Under the pieces are notes generated by a model, which had not been told where the DNA came from, did no database searches, and was given only the letters and a program-made list of their open reading frames with translations. 23,456 nt of DNA from a virus: UHGV virus genome UHGV-0795592; one strand, given 5' to 3'. A program made the position numbers and the translations under genes. Position 1 is the stretch's first letter. Each line of letters begins with the position of its first letter. Shown here piece after piece: positions 273 through 18,300 of this stretch.

Positions 273-512
273 ATGGGTAACACTCTACAGACACCACTGA
301 CTGATGCTGCTGTAGAGGCAACCTATGAAGAAGCAGACGAGATGAAATTTGTGCTTGCTATTTATGGTATGGAAGGGTGTAAAGAAACACTTGACCAACT
401 CTTTGCTATGACATTCTCTGATTTATTATCATTGAGACAATTTCTTGAAATTCAGAGGTCGTATAAAGAGGAAATTGCTTACAACGAACTTAGAAGAGCA
501 GGAAAAATGTAA
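273..512 (+). CDS. small protein in the tail assembly chaperone position (putative)
   Basis: ATG start, 79 aa, immediately upstream of the tape-measure-like gene. Stop overlaps the next ATG (TAATG). Call rests on position only. Confidence 0.4.
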   Translation: MGNTLQTPLTDAAVEATYEEADEMKFVLAIYGMEGCKETLDQLFAMTFSDLLSLRQFLEIQRSYKEEIAYNELRRAGKM

Positions 513-730
513 TGGCACAATATACAGTTGATAGCTTCATTGTGGAACTTGGTTTCAGTGAAAAGGTTGTTAAGGGCTTGCAAAGAGTTGAGAAAATGTC
601 TATGCAAGCTGCTCAGCGTATTGAGCGAAATATCAATAAAGCCTTTGATGTGAAGCCGAATAAAAGTTCTCAGGAAGCACTGAATAGAATTGTAAAAAAT
701 AGCTCAGTCTGCTTCGGGCAGAATCAATAA
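512..730 (+). CDS. second small ORF of the putative chaperone pair
   Basis: ATG at 512 overlaps the upstream stop. It lies in the -1 frame relative to 273-512, the arrangement seen in tail chaperone pairs. 72 aa. Confidence 0.35.
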   Translation: MAQYTVDSFIVELGFSEKVVKGLQRVEKMSMQAAQRIERNINKAFDVKPNKSSQEALNRIVKNSSVCFGQNQ

Positions 731-746
731 AGCACTCAACAGTTCC

Positions 747-8529
<7,783 letters not shown>

Positions 8530-8531
8530 TA

Positions 8532-9719
8532 ATGGCAGTAGGTGAAATTCAAATTAGTGCCTTGCCTCAAGCAGCCTTACCAATTGACCTTAGTGATATC
8601 TTCCATCTTAAGCAGGGTATTGAGGATAAGAGATGTACTCTTGAGCAATTACTTGCTCCACACTCAAGCCTAAAAAATAACCCTCATGGTGTTACTAAGA
8701 CACAAATTGGTTTAGATAATGTTATTAATGCTCTTCAGTTAGTTGCTGCAAATAACTTATCAGATATTGTTAATGTAGCTGAGGCAAGAGCAAATCTACA
8801 GATTATGTCTTCAGAAGAGGTTAATAACCTTGTTCAGCAACATATTAAGGACAAGAGTAACCCACACAATACAACTAAGGCACAGGTTGGTTTAAGTAAT
8901 GTCCAGAACTGGACAACATCTAATCTGTATAACGAAGATGCAGATAAGTATGCTACAGCAAGAGCAGTAAATAACTTGTACAAGGCTGTTCAGGCTTCTT
9001 ATCCAGTAGGTACTATCCATCTTTCTATGAACTCTGCAAATCCTTCTACATACTTAATTTGTGGAGGTACTTGGGAGTTAGTTTCAAAAGGTAGGGCATT
9101 GGTTGGTTATGACTCTGATACAAGGCCAGCAGGTTCTGTATTTGGTGCTTCAACTGTCACTTTGTCAGTTAATAATATGCCTCAACACTCACACTCTGTG
9201 TCTCTCAGTGGTGGTGGTCACACTCATAATGCAACTGTTTCAATCTCAGCTTTTGACTATGGAACTAAGACTACCAACTCTTTTGACTATGGAACAAAGA
9301 CCACTAACACAACTGGTAACCACAATCACGTTGGTAGTGGGTCAACAAGTGCTGCTGGTGCTCACAACCACAGATTGACTTATGAAGCAGGTGGTGGTCT
9401 GTCGGAAAGACCTGCAATGGTTTGGTCTACAAGGAATGACCAATCGTGGTACTCAGCAGATGCTGTCTGCGAAGTCGCTGGTTCGCACACCCACTCTTTT
9501 AGCGTTACCACTAACACAACCGGTAACCACAATCACACAGTGGGTATTGGTGCTCATAGCCATACAGTTGGTATTGGTTCACATACACACAACGGTACTG
9601 TGACAGTTTCTTCTTCTGAGCATACACATAGCGGAAACACTAACAGTGTTGGTGGTGGACAAGCTTTCAACATTGAGCAGCCATCATTCGTACTGTATGT
9701 ATGGCAGAGAACAGCTTAA
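8532..9719 (+). CDS. tail fibre protein (receptor-binding), short paralogue
   Basis: 395 aa, Shine-Dalgarno AGGAG. Two copies of a fibre-repeat-like motif (NPH..TK.Q.GL.NV.N). Collar-like segment (YPVGTIHLSMNSANPSTYLICGGTWEL). C-terminal His-x-His array (QHSHS, GGHTHN, GNHNH, GAHNH, GSHTHS, GAHSHTVGIGSHTHN, EHTHS). Confidence 0.8.
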   Translation: MAVGEIQISALPQAALPIDLSDIFHLKQGIEDKRCTLEQLLAPHSSLKNNPHGVTKTQIGLDNVINALQLVAANNLSDIVNVAEARANLQIMSSEEVNNLVQQHIKDKSNPHNTTKAQVGLSNVQNWTTSNLYNEDADKYATARAVNNLYKAVQASYPVGTIHLSMNSANPSTYLICGGTWELVSKGRALVGYDSDTRPAGSVFGASTVTLSVNNMPQHSHSVSLSGGGHTHNATVSISAFDYGTKTTNSFDYGTKTTNTTGNHNHVGSGSTSAAGAHNHRLTYEAGGGLSERPAMVWSTRNDQSWYSADAVCEVAGSHTHSFSVTTNTTGNHNHTVGIGAHSHTVGIGSHTHNGTVTVSSSEHTHSGNTNSVGGGQAFNIEQPSFVLYVWQRTA

Positions 9720-9728
9720 TTTCTTTAC

Positions 9729-9751
9729 AGGGGCTTTATAGCCCCTTTTAA
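9729..9751 (+). terminator. weak intrinsic terminator or attenuator between the two tail-fibre genes
   Basis: Hairpin AGGGGCT-TTAT-AGCCCCT (9729-9746) followed by TTTTA. The T-run is short, so readthrough is likely. Confidence 0.4.
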
Positions 9752-9765
9752 GAGGAAAATTTATA

Positions 9766-12150
9766 ATGGCAGATTACAAGTTGAGTGAATTAAACTCAAT
9801 CGACACAATCCGTTCAGATGACCTTCTTCATGTCAGAGTTAAAAAGAGACCTGAAATGCTGGGTGATGAAGACCGTCGAATGACCTATCAAGACTTCTTA
9901 GCATCTTTTAAACTTGAGAGATTTGTTCAGATTGCTGGTAGCACTATGGCAGGTGACTTAGGAATTGTTAAGTTACTTTATGGTGGTAAGACAGTATTTG
10001 ACCCAACAGGCTCTTCTGAGATTAATATCGGAGATGTTTTAAAGTCTTTTAAAATCAACTCAAATGGTCTTAAGCTAACTATTGCAGATGCTTCAAGGTC
10101 AGCAACTGTTTACCATACTCTGAATAAACCAAGTCCTAATGAACTTGGGATGAGAACTAATGAAGAGAATGATGCAAGATATGCAAGATTAGCTGTAAAT
10201 AACACATTTAGAGGTACTCAAGCTATCCTCTCTGATAATGAAGCTCTTATTGTTAAGAACATTACACAAGGAATGCCGCTATATATTCGTGGTCAAGATG
10301 CAGACGGTACTAACAGGTGGTATCTAGGTAATGATAATAAAGGCACAGACAACCTTGTGTTAAAGAATGTCAAGACTGACGTTTCAATTGCTATTTTGGG
10401 AAATTTAGTAACAGTCAACAGGACTCTTCAAATTGCTGGTCAAGTTCAGCCATCAAGTTTTGCTAACTTGGATGCTAGATATTTTACTCAAACAGAAGCT
10501 AACCAGAGATTTGCACAGTTAGCTGGTAATAACACATTTAGTGGCTCTAATATTTTCACTAATTTTGTTGTTAAGAAGAATGCTAATGCTATTACTCTGC
10601 AAAATGTAGATACAACTGCTGCTTTGTATATCCGAGCAAGAAAATCAGATGGAACTAATAAGTGGTACATTGGTAATGACGGTGATGAGAACATTGTAAA
10701 CATCTATAACTATTTAGCAAGAACACAAATCTCACTAGGTAACACCATTACCATGAGCAGAACAGTCCAAATTGGTGGTCAAGTTCAACCTTCAGATTGG
10801 GCTAACATTGACTCTAGATACATCCCAGCCGCAACTTTGAGTAACCTACCTAAACTTAATGTTGCTAACACATTTGTGAATGTGCAAACTATTGTATCAA
10901 ATAATGAAGGCGTAGTATTAAGGAACTTAACACAGGGGCAGCCACAATATATCCGTGGTGTTGATACTGCGAATGTATCTAGATGGTGGGTAGGTGTGGG
11001 TGGCACAAATTCTACTGATGTAGCCTTAAACAATAGTTTCTCTGGCACTCAAATTACTCTTGGGACTTCAGTGATTAAGGCTAATAAGAATCTAACCATT
11101 ACTGGTCAAGTTCAGCCATCTGATTGGTCTAACTTAGATGCTAGATACTTTGTTAAGACTCAGTTATTAAATCAATCCTTGATGACTGTATCTGTAGATA
11201 ATCTTGAAAACCCTTCAGCATTTAATCTTGGGTATTCAGGTTTTGTCAGAAACAACAGTGTGACTAGTGGTCTGAAAGAGTTGGCAATTCATGTTGCTCA
11301 CTCTAATAAGTCTGCTGCACATGCAAGGGGTATCTCTTTTGTATACGGTTCAAATGGTTTGGCAACATTCACCTATGCCTATGACAAAAATGGTGACTAT
11401 GCCGGAGAGGCACAGCTTTACACAACTGATTTTAAACCAACCCCTTCAGATATCGGTGCATACACTAAAGCTGAGACTGACCAGAAGATTGCACAGGCAG
11501 TAAGTGACTCTACAGACCTTAATAAAATCTACCCAGTTGGTATTGTAACGTGGTTTAACAGTAATGTTAACCCTAATACAGCACTTCCTGGTCTAACTTG
11601 GACATACCTGAACAATGGTGTTGGTAGAACTATCAGAATCGCAGCAGCAAATGGTTCAGATGTTGCTACAACTGGTGGTTCAGATTCTGTAACGTTAGCT
11701 GTTGGTAACTTACCATCACACACTCACAGTTTCTCTGCTACCACTTCATCTTTTGATTATGGTACGAAGGGTACTAATAGCACTGGTGGTCATACTCACT
11801 CTGTAAGTGGTACAACAAGTGCTGCTGGTAACCACGCTCACCACTTAGGTCTGCTATTGGTTAATGGTGGTGATGCTCAGTACGGATATACCACTATTGG
11901 TAACAATAAGACAAGAACTCTTGACTGGCTTGACAGAACTGATAACAAGTTCCCTAACACTAACACAACTGGTAACCATACACACACATGGTCTGGTACT
12001 ACAAGTGGTGCTGGTAACCATTCCCACTCTGTAGGCATTGGTGCTCACAGCCACACAGTTAGTGGTAATACTGGTAGTACAGGTTCTGGTTCGGCATTTA
12101 GTGTTACTAACCAGTTCTACAAGTTAATGGCTTGGGTAAGAACTGCTTAA
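9766..12150 (+). CDS. tail fibre protein (receptor-binding), long paralogue
   Basis: 794 aa, Shine-Dalgarno AGAGGAA. Three tandem repeats of about 105 aa. Collar-like segment ([27 protein letters not shown]). C-terminal His-x-His array (PSHTHS, GGHTHS, GNHAHH, GNHTHT, GNHSHS, GAHSHT) and the same FDYGTK motif as the 395-aa fibre. Confidence 0.8.
10186..11152 (+). repeat. three in-frame tandem repeats (about 105 codons each) inside the long tail-fibre gene
   Basis: Each protein repeat has the form NNTF.G…N.TQG.P.YIRG.D..GTN.WY.GND…RTLQI.GQVQPS.(F/W).N.D.RY. Approximate repeat starts are 10186, 10510 and 10849. Confidence 0.6.
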
Positions 12151-12156
12151 TCCCTT

Positions 12157-12211
12157 GTTGACTGATTGTTAAGATGGTGTTAATATTTTTTATGGGTATT
12201 CTCACCATCTT
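12157..12211 (+). promoter_or_regulatory. sigma70-like promoter with a 9-bp inverted repeat bracketing the -10
   Basis: -35 TTGACT (12157-12162), 17-bp spacer, -10 TAATAT (12181-12186). Perfect inverted repeat AAGATGGTG (12171-12179) / CACCATCTT (12203-12211). Shine-Dalgarno GAGGTGA before the ATG at 12230. Confidence 0.45.
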
Positions 12212-12229
12212 GGCTGATGAGGTGATTAA

Positions 12230-12427
12230 ATGCCTACAATCCTAGCAATTCTTCTAAAAAATCTAGGTAGCTTCTTCTGGAAACTCATTTTATCCCTTCT
12301 AAGTGAATACATGATTGAGAAAGTGTTCTTTAGGCTTGCAAGATACCTTGCGAGTAAAACAGACACACCTATTGATGATGAGTTCGTAGATAACTTAGAA
12401 AAAGCTTTTAAGGGGGAGAATAAATGA
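12230..12427 (+). CDS. small hydrophobic protein (lysis- or exclusion-associated candidate)
   Basis: 65 aa with an N-terminal hydrophobic/amphipathic segment (ILAILLKNLGSFFWKLILSLL) and a charged C-terminus. Stop overlaps the next ATG (ATGA). Confidence 0.4.
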   Translation: MPTILAILLKNLGSFFWKLILSLLSEYMIEKVFFRLARYLASKTDTPIDDEFVDNLEKAFKGENK

Positions 12428-12795
12428 AGTGGCTAGAGGAAGCTTTTAAAAATAATATTGGTGCAATTGTAGTTGGTATTTTTAGTGTTATTGGTATGTA
12501 TACCACCATGCAAGTCTCGGATGGTAAGCAAGAAGTGTCTATCACAACAAAGTTACAGCAGTTAGATAATTATTCCAAAAGTAATTATTCAGCTATTCGT
12601 GATTTACAGTCTGATATGAGGCTGCTTCAGCTAGGGATGGAGAACCAGAAAGTCCAGTTAGAGAATGTTAAGGGTGAGAACGCAAAACTTACTAAGACTC
12701 TTGATAAATTCTCTGATAGTGTGAACAATCTGGCTCAATCAGTATCAGCCCTCCAAGCTATTACTGAAAAGAACACAAAGAATACTGAAAAGTAA
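12424..12795 (+). CDS. single-pass membrane protein with a coiled-coil C-terminal domain (holin/spanin-like candidate)
   Basis: 123 aa, Shine-Dalgarno GGGGGAG. N-terminal transmembrane segment (IGAIVVGIFSVIGMYTTM) followed by a heptad-like, Q/L/K-rich domain. Located just downstream of the tail fibres. Confidence 0.45.
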   Translation: MKWLEEAFKNNIGAIVVGIFSVIGMYTTMQVSDGKQEVSITTKLQQLDNYSKSNYSAIRDLQSDMRLLQLGMENQKVQLENVKGENAKLTKTLDKFSDSVNNLAQSVSALQAITEKNTKNTEK

Positions 12796-12800
12796 AGTTT

Positions 12801-12835
12801 AAGGCTCCTTTTTACGGGAGCCTTTTTTGTTTTAT
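12801..12835 (+). terminator. intrinsic terminator at the convergence point of the two modules
   Basis: Stem AAGGCTCC (12801-12808), loop of 8 nt, stem GGAGCCTT (12817-12824), then TTTTTGTTTT. It lies between the stop at 12795 (plus) and the thyA stop at 12832-12834 (minus). Confidence 0.6.
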
Positions 12836-13731
12836 TTACCTACTGACAAAGGTGCTTCAATCTTTCCTGCATGTTGGTAATTGTTAATACCACCGATAAA
12901 GTCACTTGCAGTGAGGTGTTTTAAGTCACTTAAAGTGTTAAGTGGGATACCAATCTCAAAAGTTGGTGCATGGAACTCTTCATTGTTCATCAGTTCATAA
13001 ACCTGCTTCATATGATTCTGATAAATCTGAGTATCCCCAAAGACACCTATCAAGTACCGTGGAGTGTATCCAGTCATCTTACAAAGAACTTCCAGAATAA
13101 AACCATAAGATGCAATATTAAACGGAAGTCCTAAAAAGGTGTCTACTGAACGCTGATACCATTGTAAGTCAACTTCACCCTCGTTAGTAATATAAATCTG
13201 AAACAGAACATGACAAGGTGCTAGAGCCATTGAGTTTGCTGCAATATCTGCTGCATTCCAAGCATTAACAAGCATGTAACGGTCTGTGATATCACCCTTC
13301 ATCTTCGTTACTAAGGTTTCTAACTGGTCTACAACACAACCATTATGACCTTCAAAGTTTCTCCACTGAACTCCGTAGATTCTCCCACCTGCATCCTCTA
13401 ACCAGTCTTGTTCAGAAGAATAATTAGAACTCAACCAGCGTTTAAAATCATCTGACCAGATAGTCCAGCGTTCCCCATCATTTTCACCCCAAGTACGGTA
13501 ACGAAGTTCACCAAGTTTATTCTCACCATTCAGGAACCATAAAGCTTCCCCAATAACTTGCCGTGTAAACACCTGTTTAGATGTTAAGAGTGGGAAACCA
13601 GTACGCATATCAAAACGAAATTGTGGTGGAGCAAATGCAGAGATAACATCTCCAGTTCGTGTAGTACGCAGTTCACCAACGGATAAAACATGGTTCAGGA
13701 TATTTTTGTAACTCAAATCAGCTTGTGACAT
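12832..13731 (-). CDS. thyA: thymidylate synthase
   Basis: 299 aa with canonical ThyA motifs: RTGTG-like N-terminus (RTTRTGD), catalytic ALAPCH, and DTFLGLPFNIASY. ATG start. Confidence 0.95.
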   Translation of the reverse strand: MSQADLSYKNILNHVLSVGELRTTRTGDVISAFAPPQFRFDMRTGFPLLTSKQVFTRQVIGEALWFLNGENKLGELRYRTWGENDGERWTIWSDDFKRWLSSNYSSEQDWLEDAGGRIYGVQWRNFEGHNGCVVDQLETLVTKMKGDITDRYMLVNAWNAADIAANSMALAPCHVLFQIYITNEGEVDLQWYQRSVDTFLGLPFNIASYGFILEVLCKMTGYTPRYLIGVFGDTQIYQNHMKQVYELMNNEEFHAPTFEIGIPLNTLSDLKHLTASDFIGGINNYQHAGKIEAPLSVGK

Positions 13732-16315: not shown

Positions 16316-16359
16316 AATGACCTCAAAGTTATATTAAATTTTGTATTACATTGAGTGTA

Positions 16360-16407
16360 AAAATAAGCTATAACACCTGACTTGTCAACAGATTTTATAG
16401 CTTATTT
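16360..16407 (-). promoter_or_regulatory. sigma70-like promoter embedded in a 13-bp perfect inverted repeat
   Basis: On the minus strand: -35 TTGACA (plus 16383-16388), 17-bp spacer, -10 TATTTT (plus 16360-16365). Inverted repeat arms AAATAAGCTATAA (16361-16373) and TTATAGCTTATTT (16395-16407) flank the -35. Confidence 0.4.
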
Positions 16408-16850
16408 GGCAGATTTTTTATAAGGCTACTGCCATCCTTCCATACCTTACCGAACATCACCCTACTGAACCCGACCCTACCTCACCCGACCCAACCGAAC
16501 CGTACCGAGCACAGACTTATTAAAAGACCCTGTTTAAAGACCTTTTAAAAAGGTAAGTCTCATTTTAATGTAGTTGAGACTAACTACCCGCACCGAACCT
16601 CACATGACCTGACCGCACCCGACCTCACCGCGCCATGCCATAACATACCTTACTTAAAAACCCTTTTCAAAGACTCTTAAGTGATGTAATCGAATTTTAA
16701 TGTAGCTCCGATTAACTACCCATACTTTACCTAACCCGACCGCACCTAACCCGACCTGACCCTACCAGACCCCACCTAGCTAAACCTTATTAAAAGACCC
16801 TGTTTAAAGACCTTTTAAAAAGGAGCCTCCGAAGAGGCTACCTAGTCAAC
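16401..16850. repeat. modular non-coding repeat region A: three (ACCNN)n pentamer arrays, AT-rich motifs and hairpins
   Basis: Arrays at 16444-16508, 16592-16656 and 16724-16788, with AC at every fifth base on the plus strand. Motif M1 (ttattaaaagaccctgtttaaagaccttttaaaaagg) at 16517-16553 and identically at 16787-16823. Motif M2 at 16653-16686. Hairpins at 16556-16581 and 16687-16714. No ORF in the track. Confidence 0.75.
16824..16845 (-). terminator. candidate intrinsic terminator after the 146-aa gene
   Basis: Hairpin AGCCTC-CGAA-GAGGCT (16824-16839). Read on the minus strand it is followed by CCTTTTTAAAAGG. It lies directly 3' of the gene ending at 16851. Confidence 0.4.
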
Positions 16851-17950: not shown

Positions 17951-18280
17951 GAAACTTGGTAGATTTTTAACGTGGCTGCTACCATCCACCCATACTTTAC
18001 CTAACCAAACCGAACCTCACACAACCAGACCGAGCCGCACCCCGCCTTATTAAAAGACCCTCTTAAAGACCTTTTAAAAAGGTAAGTCTCATTTTAATGT
18101 AGCTGAGACTAACTACCCATACCCTACTTTACCTTACCGTACAGTACTTTACCCGACCACACCGGACAATACTTAACCCTACCTCACCCGACCGGACATC
18201 ACTTAAAAACCCTTTTCAAAAACTCTTAAGTGATGCTGGTGAGTACCCGTTGGTTTATGCTGCTCAGTATACTCACCAAA
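17951..18280. repeat. modular non-coding repeat region B, homologous to region A: two (ACCNN)n arrays, M1, M2 and hairpins
   Basis: Arrays at 17994-18043 and 18121-18205. M1 variant at 18047-18082 (2-3 differences). Hairpin at 18085-18110 identical to region A but for one loop base. M2 at 18202-18235 (1 mismatch). Extra 8-bp-stem hairpin at 18238-18277. Confidence 0.75.
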
Positions 18281-18300
18281 TTTTCTATGTCAACAACTTT

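What the first reader, a model, noticed from the sequence alone, without database searches (positions are those of the whole stretch)
12157..12795. Separately promoted membrane-protein pair after the tail fibres, with an inverted repeat around the -10
A near-consensus promoter (TTGACT-17-TAATAT) with a 9-bp perfect inverted repeat bracketing the -10 drives two small membrane proteins. The second has the N-terminal TM plus periplasmic coiled-coil topology typical of i-spanins or T4-type holins. Position after the fibre genes matches where T-even phages place the holin gene. No endolysin is in the window, and a host-type promoter on late-module genes is unexpected, so an immunity role is also possible.
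Basis: partly seen in the sequence, partly recalled or inferred. Interest (0 to 1): 0.4.

Follow-up and report, generated by a model that had tools for sequence, protein, structure and literature searches.

The report
Felix O1-type phage lysis gene pair
The two small genes after the tail fibres of this Felix O1-like phage are most likely cell-bursting (lysis) genes. The first belongs to a lysis-factor family already described from phage PM2, the second is an untested "holin" candidate, and only the conserved promoter-plus-hairpin in front of them appears undescribed.

Summary
The window is a Felixounavirus, 98% identical to E. coli phage vB_EcoM_DE7. All the described sequence features are present.

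- **Cis elements.** There is an extended -10 sigma70-like promoter (TTGACT-17-TGtTAATAT). A 9-bp perfect inverted repeat forms the core of a 47-nt hairpin. Two translationally coupled ORFs (65 and 123 aa) follow, then a bidirectional terminator.
- **Selection.** Both ORFs are under strong purifying selection (dN/dS 0.02-0.07). The repeat arms are invariant in 32 sequences, although synonymous sites are saturated.
- **ORF1.** It belongs to Pfam PF26925 (Phage_PM2_Gpl, PM2 protein P18). In PM2, P18 is required for outer-membrane disruption, and a Felix O1 homologue was reported in 2007. Family members sit directly after endolysins of at least three enzyme classes. In RB49-like phages they sit between tail-fibre gp37 and holin T.
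- **ORF2.** It has one transmembrane helix and a single roughly 83-residue periplasmic helix. The family is confined to Ounavirinae. About a third of the GenBank records sampled call it "holin", without experiments.
- **Not an i-spanin.** Relatives carry a canonical overlapped i/o-spanin pair elsewhere. The lipobox-like alternative-frame ORF is not conserved.

Verdict: ordinary, largely known lysis genes. ORF2's exact role and the promoter-hairpin remain untested.

The parts
12158..12163 (+). -35-like hexamer TTGACT
   Evidence: Consensus scan. Conserved in 30 of 32 aligned sequences; two loci have TTAACT.
12178..12186 (+). Extended -10: TG, one base, then TAATAT (hexamer 12181-12186)
   Evidence: flags TG before the second hexamer. 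The hexamer is invariant except TAACAT in one locus. The expected start near 12192-12194 is an inference.
12168..12214 (+). Conserved hairpin / inverted repeat. The perfect 9-bp core is 12171-12179 with 12203-12211, and the -10 lies inside it. No U-tract follows.
   Evidence: -21.5 kcal/mol, z -7.2; 15-nt arms, 87%; 0/18 arm positions variable vs 21/42, p = 8e-5; 97.8% of cells paired, but 13/19 pairs never vary and covariation is not significant.
12219..12225 (+). Shine-Dalgarno GAGGTGA of ORF1
   Evidence: Read from the sequence. It is paired with UCACC of the right repeat arm in the fold of a transcript starting at 12193 (-15.1 kcal/mol, z -2.4).
12230..12427 (+). ORF1, 65 aa (Felix O1 gp78): PM2 P18/gp l-family lysis factor (Pfam PF26925, PHROG 402). 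Predicted three helices, basic N-terminal half, acidic T-x-T-P-x-D-D-E tail.
   Evidence: dN/dS 0.03-0.04 against the divergent relatives L031 and L033.
12424..12795 (+). ORF2, 123 aa (Felix O1 gp79): bitopic inner-membrane protein. TMD at about 11-31, short linker, one continuous helix 40-122 with a single heptad register. Holin candidate; Ounavirinae-restricted family (PHROG 4038).
   Evidence: ATGA overlap with ORF1. dN/dS 0.02-0.07.
12801..12834 (.). Bidirectional rho-independent terminator shared with the convergent thymidylate synthase gene (12832-13731, - strand)
   Evidence: -14.3 kcal/mol, z -4.1. It matches terminators t79/t80 listed for Felix O1.

Best explanation
The region is the distal lysis module of a Felix O1-type phage, appended to the end of the late tail-fibre operon.

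- **ORF1** is a homologue of PM2 lysis protein P18 (gp l). It is a small three-helix protein with a basic, hydrophobic-amphipathic N-terminal half and an acidic T-x-T-x-x-D-D tail. By analogy with PM2, it helps breach the envelope (the outer membrane in PM2) once lysis has been triggered.
- **ORF2** is translationally coupled to ORF1. It is a type-II (N-in, C-out) inner-membrane protein with a roughly 12-nm periplasmic coiled coil. It most likely acts as the holin, or as the membrane-lesion partner of ORF1. It occupies the slot that holin T occupies in RB49-like phages and that holin P17 occupies next to P18 in PM2.
- **Other lysis genes.** The endolysin and a canonical two-component spanin are encoded elsewhere in the genome.
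- **Expression.** The pair is probably expressed by read-through from the late tail-fibre transcript. In the Felixounavirus/Mooglevirus/Suspvirus group it may also be expressed from its own extended -10 sigma70-type promoter. That promoter lies inside a strictly conserved hairpin-forming inverted repeat, which presumably tunes timing or level.

Shown: gene reality, family membership of ORF1, architecture of ORF2, synteny, and conservation of the cis elements.
Inferred: the lysis roles in this phage, ORF2 as holin, promoter activity, and what the hairpin does.
For: **ORF1 family**
- Every relative found carries precomputed Pfam PF26925, named Phage_PM2_Gpl.
- hhalign of an 8-sequence profile against PM2 gp l gives probability 92%, E 6.7e-7 and 38% identity over 42 columns.
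- Published statements: P18 homologues occur in Felix 01 and RB49 (PMC1950889). P17 is a distinct holin and P18 is required for outer-membrane disruption (PMC9502842; PMC6356626).

**Lysis neighbourhoods of the family**
- Directly after a GH108 endolysin in Vibrio phage 1.061.O.
- Directly after Phage_lysozyme genes in a Shewanella prophage and in P22-like metagenomic phages.
- Directly after a 1112-aa lysozyme-domain protein.
- Directly after an Amidase_3 gene.
- Between gp37 and Phage_holin_T in Krischvirus.
- Next to holin gp k in PM2.

**Linkage of ORF1 and ORF2**
- The pair stays linked between the tail module and thyA in four Ounavirinae lineages, although ORF2 identity falls to 25-28%.

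**ORF2 architecture**
- One TMD, an unbroken heptad register and a single helix 40-122.
- Felix O1 gp79 was listed as a holin candidate. About a third of the sampled GenBank records, including a Center for Phage Technology genome (Mordin), call it holin.

**Late co-transcription in relatives**
- There is no intergenic gap in L057.

**Cis elements under selection**
-.
Against: - No experiment exists for either gene in any Ounavirinae phage.
- Specialists disagree on the holin. Mushroom's annotators chose a different gene, the 185-aa DUF7338 protein in the tRNA cluster, and left this one hypothetical. Meda's annotators found no holin.
- ORF2 shows no detectable homology to T, to PM2 P17 or to any holin family. 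Its weak profile hits are to Rz-like i-spanin PHROGs.
- In Grimontviridae, P18-like genes sit inside the head-tail module with no lysis gene adjacent.
- Felix O1-like and RB49-like phages already have spanins, so an outer-membrane role for ORF1 would be redundant.
- RT-PCR in Felix O1 reported ORF79 maximal at 5 min and ORF78 at 25 min. That table also puts capsid genes at 5 min, so it is noisy.
Confidence: 0.55

Rival explanations
1. ORF2 is not the holin. It is the inner-membrane, coiled-coil subunit of a second, lipoprotein-free envelope-spanning or outer-membrane-disrupting device that works together with the P18-like ORF1. The true holin would then lie elsewhere, for example the DUF7338 protein in the tRNA cluster.
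For: - The ORF2 homologue from Zyzzx hits PHROG 739 'Rz-like spanin' at E 2e-7 and PHROG 7686 at 1.8e-4. The window protein hits PHROG 739 at 0.0097.
- The best BLAST hit reported for Felix O1 gp79 was the T4-type i-spanin PseT.3 of JS98, at 24.6% identity.
- P18 acts on the outer membrane in PM2.
- ORF1 and ORF2 overlap (ATGA) and co-occur in four lineages.
- Mushroom's annotators assigned holin to another gene.
Against: - hhalign of the ORF2 profile against the phage's own i-spanin gives probability 0.1%.
- Coiled-coil composition readily produces weak profile hits, as the Pfam, NCBIfam and PDB noise shows.
- There is no o-spanin-like lipoprotein gene in or next to ORF2.
- In Krischvirus and PM2 the P18-like gene is paired with a holin, not with a spanin.
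Confidence: 0.25
2. The pair is an early-expressed superinfection-exclusion or immunity module (functionally like T4 Imm/Sp). It would be made from the host-type promoter to modify the envelope against secondary phages.
For: - A conserved sigma70-like extended -10 promoter lies directly upstream.
- RT-PCR in Felix O1 scored ORF79 as maximal at 5 min.
- ORF2 is an inner-membrane protein facing the periplasm.
Against: - ORF1's family is repeatedly tied to endolysin and holin genes, and to a genetically defined lysis factor.
- Relatives lack a separate promoter.
- There are no hits in PADLOC or NCBIfam.
- The RT-PCR table is unreliable, since capsid genes also score 'early'.
- Direct comparison with T4 Imm/Sp sequences was not done.
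Confidence: 0.07
3. ORF2 mimics the bitopic coiled-coil divisome proteins FtsB/FtsL/DivIC and blocks host cell division during infection, like SPO1 gp56 (comparison recalled from memory).
For: - There is a Pfam DivIC (septum formation initiator) match at E 7.9e-4, 19.6 bits, over residues 72-111.
- The overall architecture and size are the same as FtsB/FtsL.
Against: - The score is below the Pfam cut-off of 28.9 bits and sits among many equal coiled-coil noise hits.
- No PDB or NCBIfam support was found.
- This reading does not explain the obligate linkage to a P18-like lysis factor.
Confidence: 0.05
4. The inverted repeat is only a decayed terminator or mRNA-end hairpin of the tail-fibre operon, and the promoter match inside it is fortuitous. 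The pair would then be expressed purely by read-through.
For: - Zyzzx and Erwinia phage Pistou have true terminator hairpins with U-tracts at the same place.
- Promoter-like matches are no more frequent than chance in the window.
- L057 has no intergenic region at all.
Against: - Both hexamers, the TG and the 17-nt spacing are conserved while neighbouring intergenic bases vary at saturated divergence.
- The hairpin lacks a U-tract.
- A second strong promoter in the window (18293..18266, - strand) has the same TGGTG ... CACCA arrangement around its -10.
Confidence: 0.2

Closest known systems
PM2 lysis proteins P17 (gp k, holin) and P18 (gp l, outer-membrane disruption factor); Pfam PF26925 Phage_PM2_Gpl
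   Same: - ORF1 is a sequence homologue of P18. A Felix 01 homologue was already reported.
- In both phages the gene lies at the very end of the late structural operon, next to a small one-TMD protein with a C-terminal coiled-coil-like helix.
   Different: - Gene order is reversed: the P18-like gene comes first here.
- ORF2 (123 aa) shows no detectable homology to P17 (53 aa).
- ORF1 has an extra, more hydrophobic N-terminal helix of about 18 residues.
- PM2 was listed as spanin-less, whereas this phage type also has spanins.
Krischvirus (RB49/GEC-3S) locus: gp37, then a P18-like gene, then holin T
   Same: - The layout is identical: distal tail fibre, P18-family gene, bitopic N-in/C-out membrane protein, bidirectional terminator, then convergent early genes.
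   Different: - The second gene there is a genuine T holin (PF11031, 218 aa, globular periplasmic domain). ORF2 is unrelated in sequence and is a single long helix.
- No separate promoter or hairpin is evident upstream of the Krischvirus gene.
Two-component spanins (lambda Rz/Rz1, T4 PseT.3/PseT.2; Felix O1-type 'JH2' family)
   Same: - ORF2 has i-spanin-like topology, with an N-terminal TMD and a periplasmic coiled coil.
- It gives weak hits to Rz-like PHROGs.
   Different: - There is no partner lipoprotein.
- It has no profile similarity to the phage's own i-spanin.
- The curated spanin pair lies elsewhere, next to the polynucleotide kinase gene.
DUF7338 protein (Mushroom gp87), the alternative annotated 'class III holin' of Felix O1-like phages
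   Same: - It is also a one-TMD protein proposed as holin on topology alone.
   Different: - It is a different family (PF24027 / PHROG 2143).
- It is encoded inside the tRNA cluster rather than next to a lysis-family gene.
- It lies outside this window.

Membership tests
Pfam PF26925 Phage_PM2_Gpl (PM2 P18) | Match to the family model | tested here: met
   Precomputed PF26925 is recorded on all 23 close and 75 profile-found relatives of ORF1, and the family name appears in the context tables. The local Pfam copy lacks this model and gave no hit.
Pfam PF26925 Phage_PM2_Gpl (PM2 P18) | Detectable homology to PM2 gp l itself | tested here: met
   hhalign gives probability 92%, E 6.7e-7, 38% identity over 42 columns. 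A published statement reports a Felix 01 homologue.
Pfam PF26925 Phage_PM2_Gpl (PM2 P18) | Conserved FF ... T-x-T-x-x-D-D core and small size (50-80 aa) | tested here: met
   Invariant F33, F34, T46, D49 and D50, and nearly invariant E26, A37 and T44, in 26 diverse members. ORF1 is 65 aa.
Pfam PF26925 Phage_PM2_Gpl (PM2 P18) | Requirement for outer-membrane disruption during lysis | not testable with these tools
   Known only for PM2, from literature cited. It needs genetics in a Felix O1-type phage.
T4-type holin (Pfam PF11031 Phage_holin_T) | Sequence match to the T family | tested here: not met
   ORF2 gives no PF11031 hit, while the GEC-3S protein scores 4.5e-61. BLASTP of ORF2 against GEC-3S T shows no similarity.
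T4-type holin (Pfam PF11031 Phage_holin_T) | One TMD, N-in/C-out, with a large periplasmic domain | tested here: inconclusive
   One TMD and a roughly 90-residue C-terminal helix are predicted. Flanking charges are nearly neutral, so orientation is inferred rather than shown.
T4-type holin (Pfam PF11031 Phage_holin_T) | Gene placed after the distal tail-fibre genes at the end of the late unit | tested here: met
Holin (functional class) | Small membrane protein that permeabilises the inner membrane at a programmed time and releases endolysin | not testable with these tools
   Only topology is available. Literature checked gives no experimental test.
Holin (functional class) | Linkage to an endolysin gene | tested here: not met
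   In Mushroom the endolysin (gp94, Phage_lysozyme) is at 70.1 kb and the pair at 36.5-37.0 kb. T4 shows that this linkage is not obligatory.
Two-component spanin, i-spanin subunit | N-terminal TMD plus periplasmic coiled-coil domain | tested here: met
Two-component spanin, i-spanin subunit | Partner o-spanin lipoprotein gene that is embedded, overlapping or adjacent | tested here: not met
   The only candidate (12473-12565, TTG start, LLVC) loses its start and acquires stops in L027-L033. Its Cys becomes His in L025, and it is absent in Zyzzx.
Two-component spanin, i-spanin subunit | Homology to a curated i-spanin family | tested here: inconclusive
   PHROG 739 hits at E 0.0097 (window) and 2e-7 (Zyzzx homologue). 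hhalign against the Mushroom i-spanin gives probability 0.1%.
PM2 P17 (gp k) holin | Sequence homology | tested here: not met
   hhalign probability 0.3%. Only the architecture is similar.
Sigma70-type promoter | -35 and -10 hexamers at 16-18 nt spacing | tested here: met
   TTGACT, 17 nt, TAATAT, with an upstream TG; 9 of 12 positions match. The elements are conserved.
Sigma70-type promoter | Primary transcript start downstream | not testable with these tools
   My searches found no transcript-end data for Felix O1-type phages. The only expression data found are end-point RT-PCR.
Intrinsic terminator (for hairpin 12168-12214) | G+C-rich stem followed by a U-tract | tested here: not met
   The stem is followed by GGCUGAUGAGG, and the terminator scan does not report it. 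Zyzzx and Pistou do have U-tract terminators at this position.

The most novel reading that the evidence does not exclude
The P18-like ORF1 and the bitopic coiled-coil ORF2 may together form a self-contained, lipoprotein-free envelope-breaching module. This would be a third route to outer-membrane disruption beside spanins and disruptin, and PM2's P17/P18 would be the minimal version.

In the Felixounavirus group its output may be gated by a promoter-embedded RNA switch:
- Transcripts starting at the internal sigma70 promoter lack the left arm. They fold so that UCACC of the right arm sequesters the Shine-Dalgarno GGUGA.
- Late read-through transcripts form the long hairpin instead and free the ribosome-binding site.
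Probability: 0.12. Interest if true: 0.6.

Novelty: already known. Interest (0 to 1): 0.3.

Why it matters
- **Annotation.** Most GenBank Felix O1-type records label ORF1 'hypothetical', and some omit it or ORF2. Yet ORF1 belongs to a genetically defined lysis-factor family. Annotation of these widely used biocontrol phages can be improved.
- **The holin question.** The holin of Felix O1-type phages has not been identified experimentally in anything I found. Two unrelated one-TMD proteins carry the label in different records. The Krischvirus synteny found here gives a concrete reason to test ORF2 first.
- **The P18 family.** Its members sit directly after endolysins of several enzyme classes. 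They also occur in phages listed as spanin-less (PM2, PaP3, P-SSM2, P-SSM4, S-PM2). That makes the family a testable candidate for the open question of how such phages breach the outer membrane.
- **The cis element.** The strictly conserved promoter-in-a-hairpin is a small, apparently undescribed regulatory element.

Tried and rejected
- **Embedded o-spanin in ORF2.** The lipobox-like alternative-frame ORF is not conserved.
- **Homology of ORF2 to known proteins.** None was found to holin T, PM2 P17 or the phage's own i-spanin.
- **Family libraries and structures for ORF2.** Pfam, NCBIfam, PADLOC and PDB sequence searches gave only sub-threshold coiled-coil noise.
- **Exhaustive phmmer of ORF2.** A search of 1.84 billion representatives found only 6 hits at E <= 0.001. 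One was a long coiled-coil protein and two were fragments, so no wider family exists to lean on.
- **Fold search with the ORF1 model.** Foldseek against the PDB gave no match with E below 2.5.
- **Repeat arms as a reused operator.** The 9-mers do not recur at other intergenic sites in the Mushroom genome.
- **Covariation support for the RNA hairpin.** Thirteen of 19 pairs never vary and the score is not above shuffles, so an RNA role cannot be separated from a DNA-level role.
- **Rfam.** Nothing reached a gathering threshold.
- **Literature.** My searches found no RNA-seq or experimental holin work on Felix O1-type phages.
- **TGGTG-N15-35-CACCA as a general promoter motif.** It is enriched (4 against 0.51 expected in the window; 12 in Mushroom). 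Most copies lie in coding DNA, so this is unresolved.
Full report
**What the window is.** The region 11800-13200 is 98.1% identical to Escherichia phage vB_EcoM_DE7, and it matches 278 phage records that are almost all Felixounavirus and relatives. The + strand from 273 to 12150 carries tail and tail-fibre genes. The pair under study follows. A terminator then separates it from the convergent thymidylate synthase and dihydrofolate reductase genes.

**Checking the observation.** The promoter-like site is TTGACT (12158-12163), a 17-nt spacer and TAATAT (12181-12186), with TG two bases upstream of the -10. The 9-mers AAGATGGTG (12171-12179) and CACCATCTT (12203-12211) are perfectly complementary. 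They are the core of a larger element. The repeat finder extends the arms to 15 nt at 87%. As RNA, 12168-12214 folds into a 19-pair hairpin of -21.5 kcal/mol, z = -7.2.

Neither feature is beyond chance by itself. The scan finds fewer promoter-like sites than shuffles do (26 against 36.6). Five separated repeats of this size occur in the window, close to my hand estimate.

Conservation settles the matter. In 32 aligned sequences (window, 30 IMG/VR loci and Mushroom), none of the 18 arm positions varies, while 21 of the 42 remaining intergenic positions do (Fisher p = 8e-5). The hexamers vary at 3 of 12 positions, each in one or two loci. Synonymous divergence between the window and the Moogle/Susp-type loci is 1.2 to over 3.

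Both ORFs are real genes. Variable sites are concentrated at third codon positions (10/6/41 and 21/15/94), and dN/dS is 0.02-0.07. ORF1 stops inside the ATGA that starts ORF2, so the two are translationally coupled. A bidirectional terminator follows. It matches t79/t80 of Felix O1.

**ORF1.**
- The local Pfam copy gives nothing, and PHROGs gives family 402 of unknown function.
- Every relative in the large protein collection carries the newer Pfam family PF26925, named Phage_PM2_Gpl.
- I fetched PM2 and compared an eight-sequence ORF1 profile with gp l. The result is probability 92%, E 6.7e-7 and 38% identity over 42 columns.
- The literature already says this. [quoted passage not shown]
- In PM2, P17 is a distinct holin and P18 is required for outer-membrane disruption (PMC9502842; PMC6356626).
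- Felix O1 gp78 was tabulated only as a conserved hypothetical protein similar to an RB49 protein.
- The AlphaFold model, built on 26 diverse sequences with pLDDT 80, has three helices at 2-23, 26-43 and 47-64.
- The N-terminal 43 residues carry +4 net charge and the last 22 carry -4. The N-terminal helix is only borderline hydrophobic.

**Contexts of the P18 family.** Outside Ounavirinae the gene lies:
- directly after a GH108 endolysin in Vibrio phage 1.061.O;
- directly after Phage_lysozyme genes in a Shewanella baltica prophage and in P22-like metagenomic phages;
- directly after a 1112-residue lysozyme-domain protein;
- directly after an Amidase_3 gene;
- directly after a DUF5675 protein in ocean contigs;
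- between gp37 and Phage_holin_T in Krischvirus;
- next to holin gp k in PM2;
- inside the head-tail module, with no lysis gene nearby, in Grimontviridae.

Adjacency to peptidoglycan hydrolases of at least three unrelated enzyme classes argues strongly that the family works in lysis. Several phages named as having P18 homologues are in the published list of spanin-less phages: PM2, PaP3, P-SSM2, P-SSM4 and S-PM2. Felix O1-like, RB49-like and 7-11-like phages have spanins as well. The family is therefore not simply a spanin substitute.

**ORF2.**
- It has one predicted TMD (about 11-31) followed by a heptad pattern in a single register from about 36 to 119, with no proline.
- The AlphaFold model (pLDDT 69; 80-88 over residues 60-110) shows helix 2-31, a short linker and one uninterrupted helix 40-122.
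- The family is confined to Ounavirinae. tblastn finds only those phages. An exhaustive phmmer over 1.84 billion representatives finds six hits. No Pfam family is recorded for it.
- About a third of the GenBank records sampled call it holin or putative holin (21 of 60 rows). UniRef propagates that name.
- Whichard et al. listed gp79 among five holin candidates. They gave the i-spanin PseT.3 of JS98 as its best hit, at 24.6% identity.
- The Center for Phage Technology annotated it as holin in Mordin but as hypothetical in Mushroom, where a DUF7338 protein in the tRNA cluster was chosen instead. For Meda they stated that no holin was identified.
- I found no homology to T, to PM2 P17 or to the phage's own i-spanin. 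Weak hits to Rz-like spanin PHROGs exist (0.0097 for the window protein, 2e-7 for the Zyzzx homologue). These cannot be told apart from TMD-plus-coiled-coil resemblance.

**Why not an i-spanin.**
- Mushroom carries a curated overlapped pair next to its polynucleotide kinase gene. The i-spanin hits PHROG 1152 (Rz-like spanin), and the o-spanin has a clear lipobox.
- Kongari et al. place Felix01, Moogle and Mushroom in that spanin family.
- The single lipobox-like alternative-frame ORF in ORF2 (12473-12565) is not conserved.

**Synteny.** ORF1 and ORF2 stay together between the tail module and thyA in four lineages:
- Felixounavirus, Mooglevirus and Suspvirus;
- Erwinia Kolesnikvirus;
- Hafnia phage Zyzzx;
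- a metagenomic contig where ORF2 is 28% identical.

The layout equals that of Krischvirus, with ORF2 in the place of holin T. I read this as replacement of one holin-type gene by another at the same site. That is an inference.

**Expression.**
- In L057 the P18-like gene starts one base after a tail-fibre assembly gene.
- In Zyzzx it follows a U-tract terminator.
- In Pistou a TTGACA-containing stretch and then a terminator precede it.

The ancestral state is therefore late co-transcription, and the separate promoter is specific to the Felixounavirus group.

A transcript starting near 12193 folds so that the right arm pairs with the Shine-Dalgarno sequence (-15.1 kcal/mol, z -2.4). A read-through transcript forms the long hairpin instead. 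This suggests a switch, but it is untested. Covariation cannot help because the stem hardly varies. Such strict sequence invariance would equally fit a protein-binding site centred on the transcription start.

Felix O1 RT-PCR scored ORF79 as maximal at 5 min and ORF78 at 25 min. Capsid genes also scored 5 min in that table, so I give it little weight.

**Verdict.** This is the distal lysis module of a Felix O1-type phage. ORF1 is a known-family lysis factor whose homology was published in 2007. ORF2 is a plausible but untested holin, or a membrane partner of ORF1. The genes are not new. The conserved promoter-in-hairpin and the endolysin-linked distribution of the P18 family are the parts worth an experiment.

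Noticed in passing
window 16316-16850 and about 18180-18260 (read on the - strand): Three blocks of degenerate GGT-containing hexamer arrays (for example ggtgaggtcgggtgcggtcaggtc...) lie in a large intergenic region between early-gene clusters. Each block is preceded by a repeated unit of about 30 nt (cttaagagtctttgaaaagggtttttaagt or similar). The arrangement looks iteron-like or origin-like.
   Followed up: no
window 18237-18278, with promoter 18293..18266 on the - strand: The strongest promoter match in the window (TTGACA-16-TATACT, 11 of 12) has its own 9-bp inverted repeat, TGGTGAGTA / TACTCACCA. TGGTG lies just upstream of the -10 and CACCA lies about 20 nt downstream. This is the same arrangement as in the finding.
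   Followed up: partly
window 5398-5427, 7313-7353, 12175-12207 and 18237-18278; Mushroom genome (L003/L004): The pattern TGGTG-N15-35-CACCA occurs 4 times in the window against 0.51 expected from dinucleotide shuffles. It occurs 12 times in Mushroom. Only two copies are at TTGAC promoters. The two coding copies in the window lie just before gene junctions at 5479 and 7364. This is unexplained and may be a codon-usage effect.
   Followed up: partly
L003 36859-36960 (Mushroom gp57); KT184315 (KhF3); PV683228: Annotation of the pair is inconsistent. Mushroom calls only a 33-aa fragment of the ORF1 homologue. KhF3 annotates neither gene, and some records show no feature under ORF2.
   Followed up: partly
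search hits MG065664 'Campylobacter phage A132' and protein P0126 'Staphylococcus hyicus': Records labelled with hosts far from Enterobacteriaceae carry 98-99% identical Felix O1-type genes. These are probably mislabelled or contaminated submissions.
   Followed up: no
L055 3669-4004 (TARA ocean contig): A 111-aa DUF5675 protein sits in the endolysin slot directly upstream of a P18-like gene. It contains an H-x-G ... G-C stretch that I recall from memory as resembling L,D-transpeptidase-type active sites, so it may be an unrecognised cell-wall hydrolase.
   Followed up: no
L046 4208-4303: A 31-aa single-TMD peptide lies two genes upstream of the lysozyme and P18-like genes in P22-like metagenomic phages. 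It is a possible minimal holin reminiscent of PM2 P17.
   Followed up: no
L040 2890-2975 (Erwinia phage Pistou): Between the tail gene and the ORF1 homologue there is a TTGACA-17-TACCTT promoter-like site, immediately followed by a U-tract terminator. Promoter and terminator are therefore in the opposite order from what co-transcription would need.
   Followed up: no
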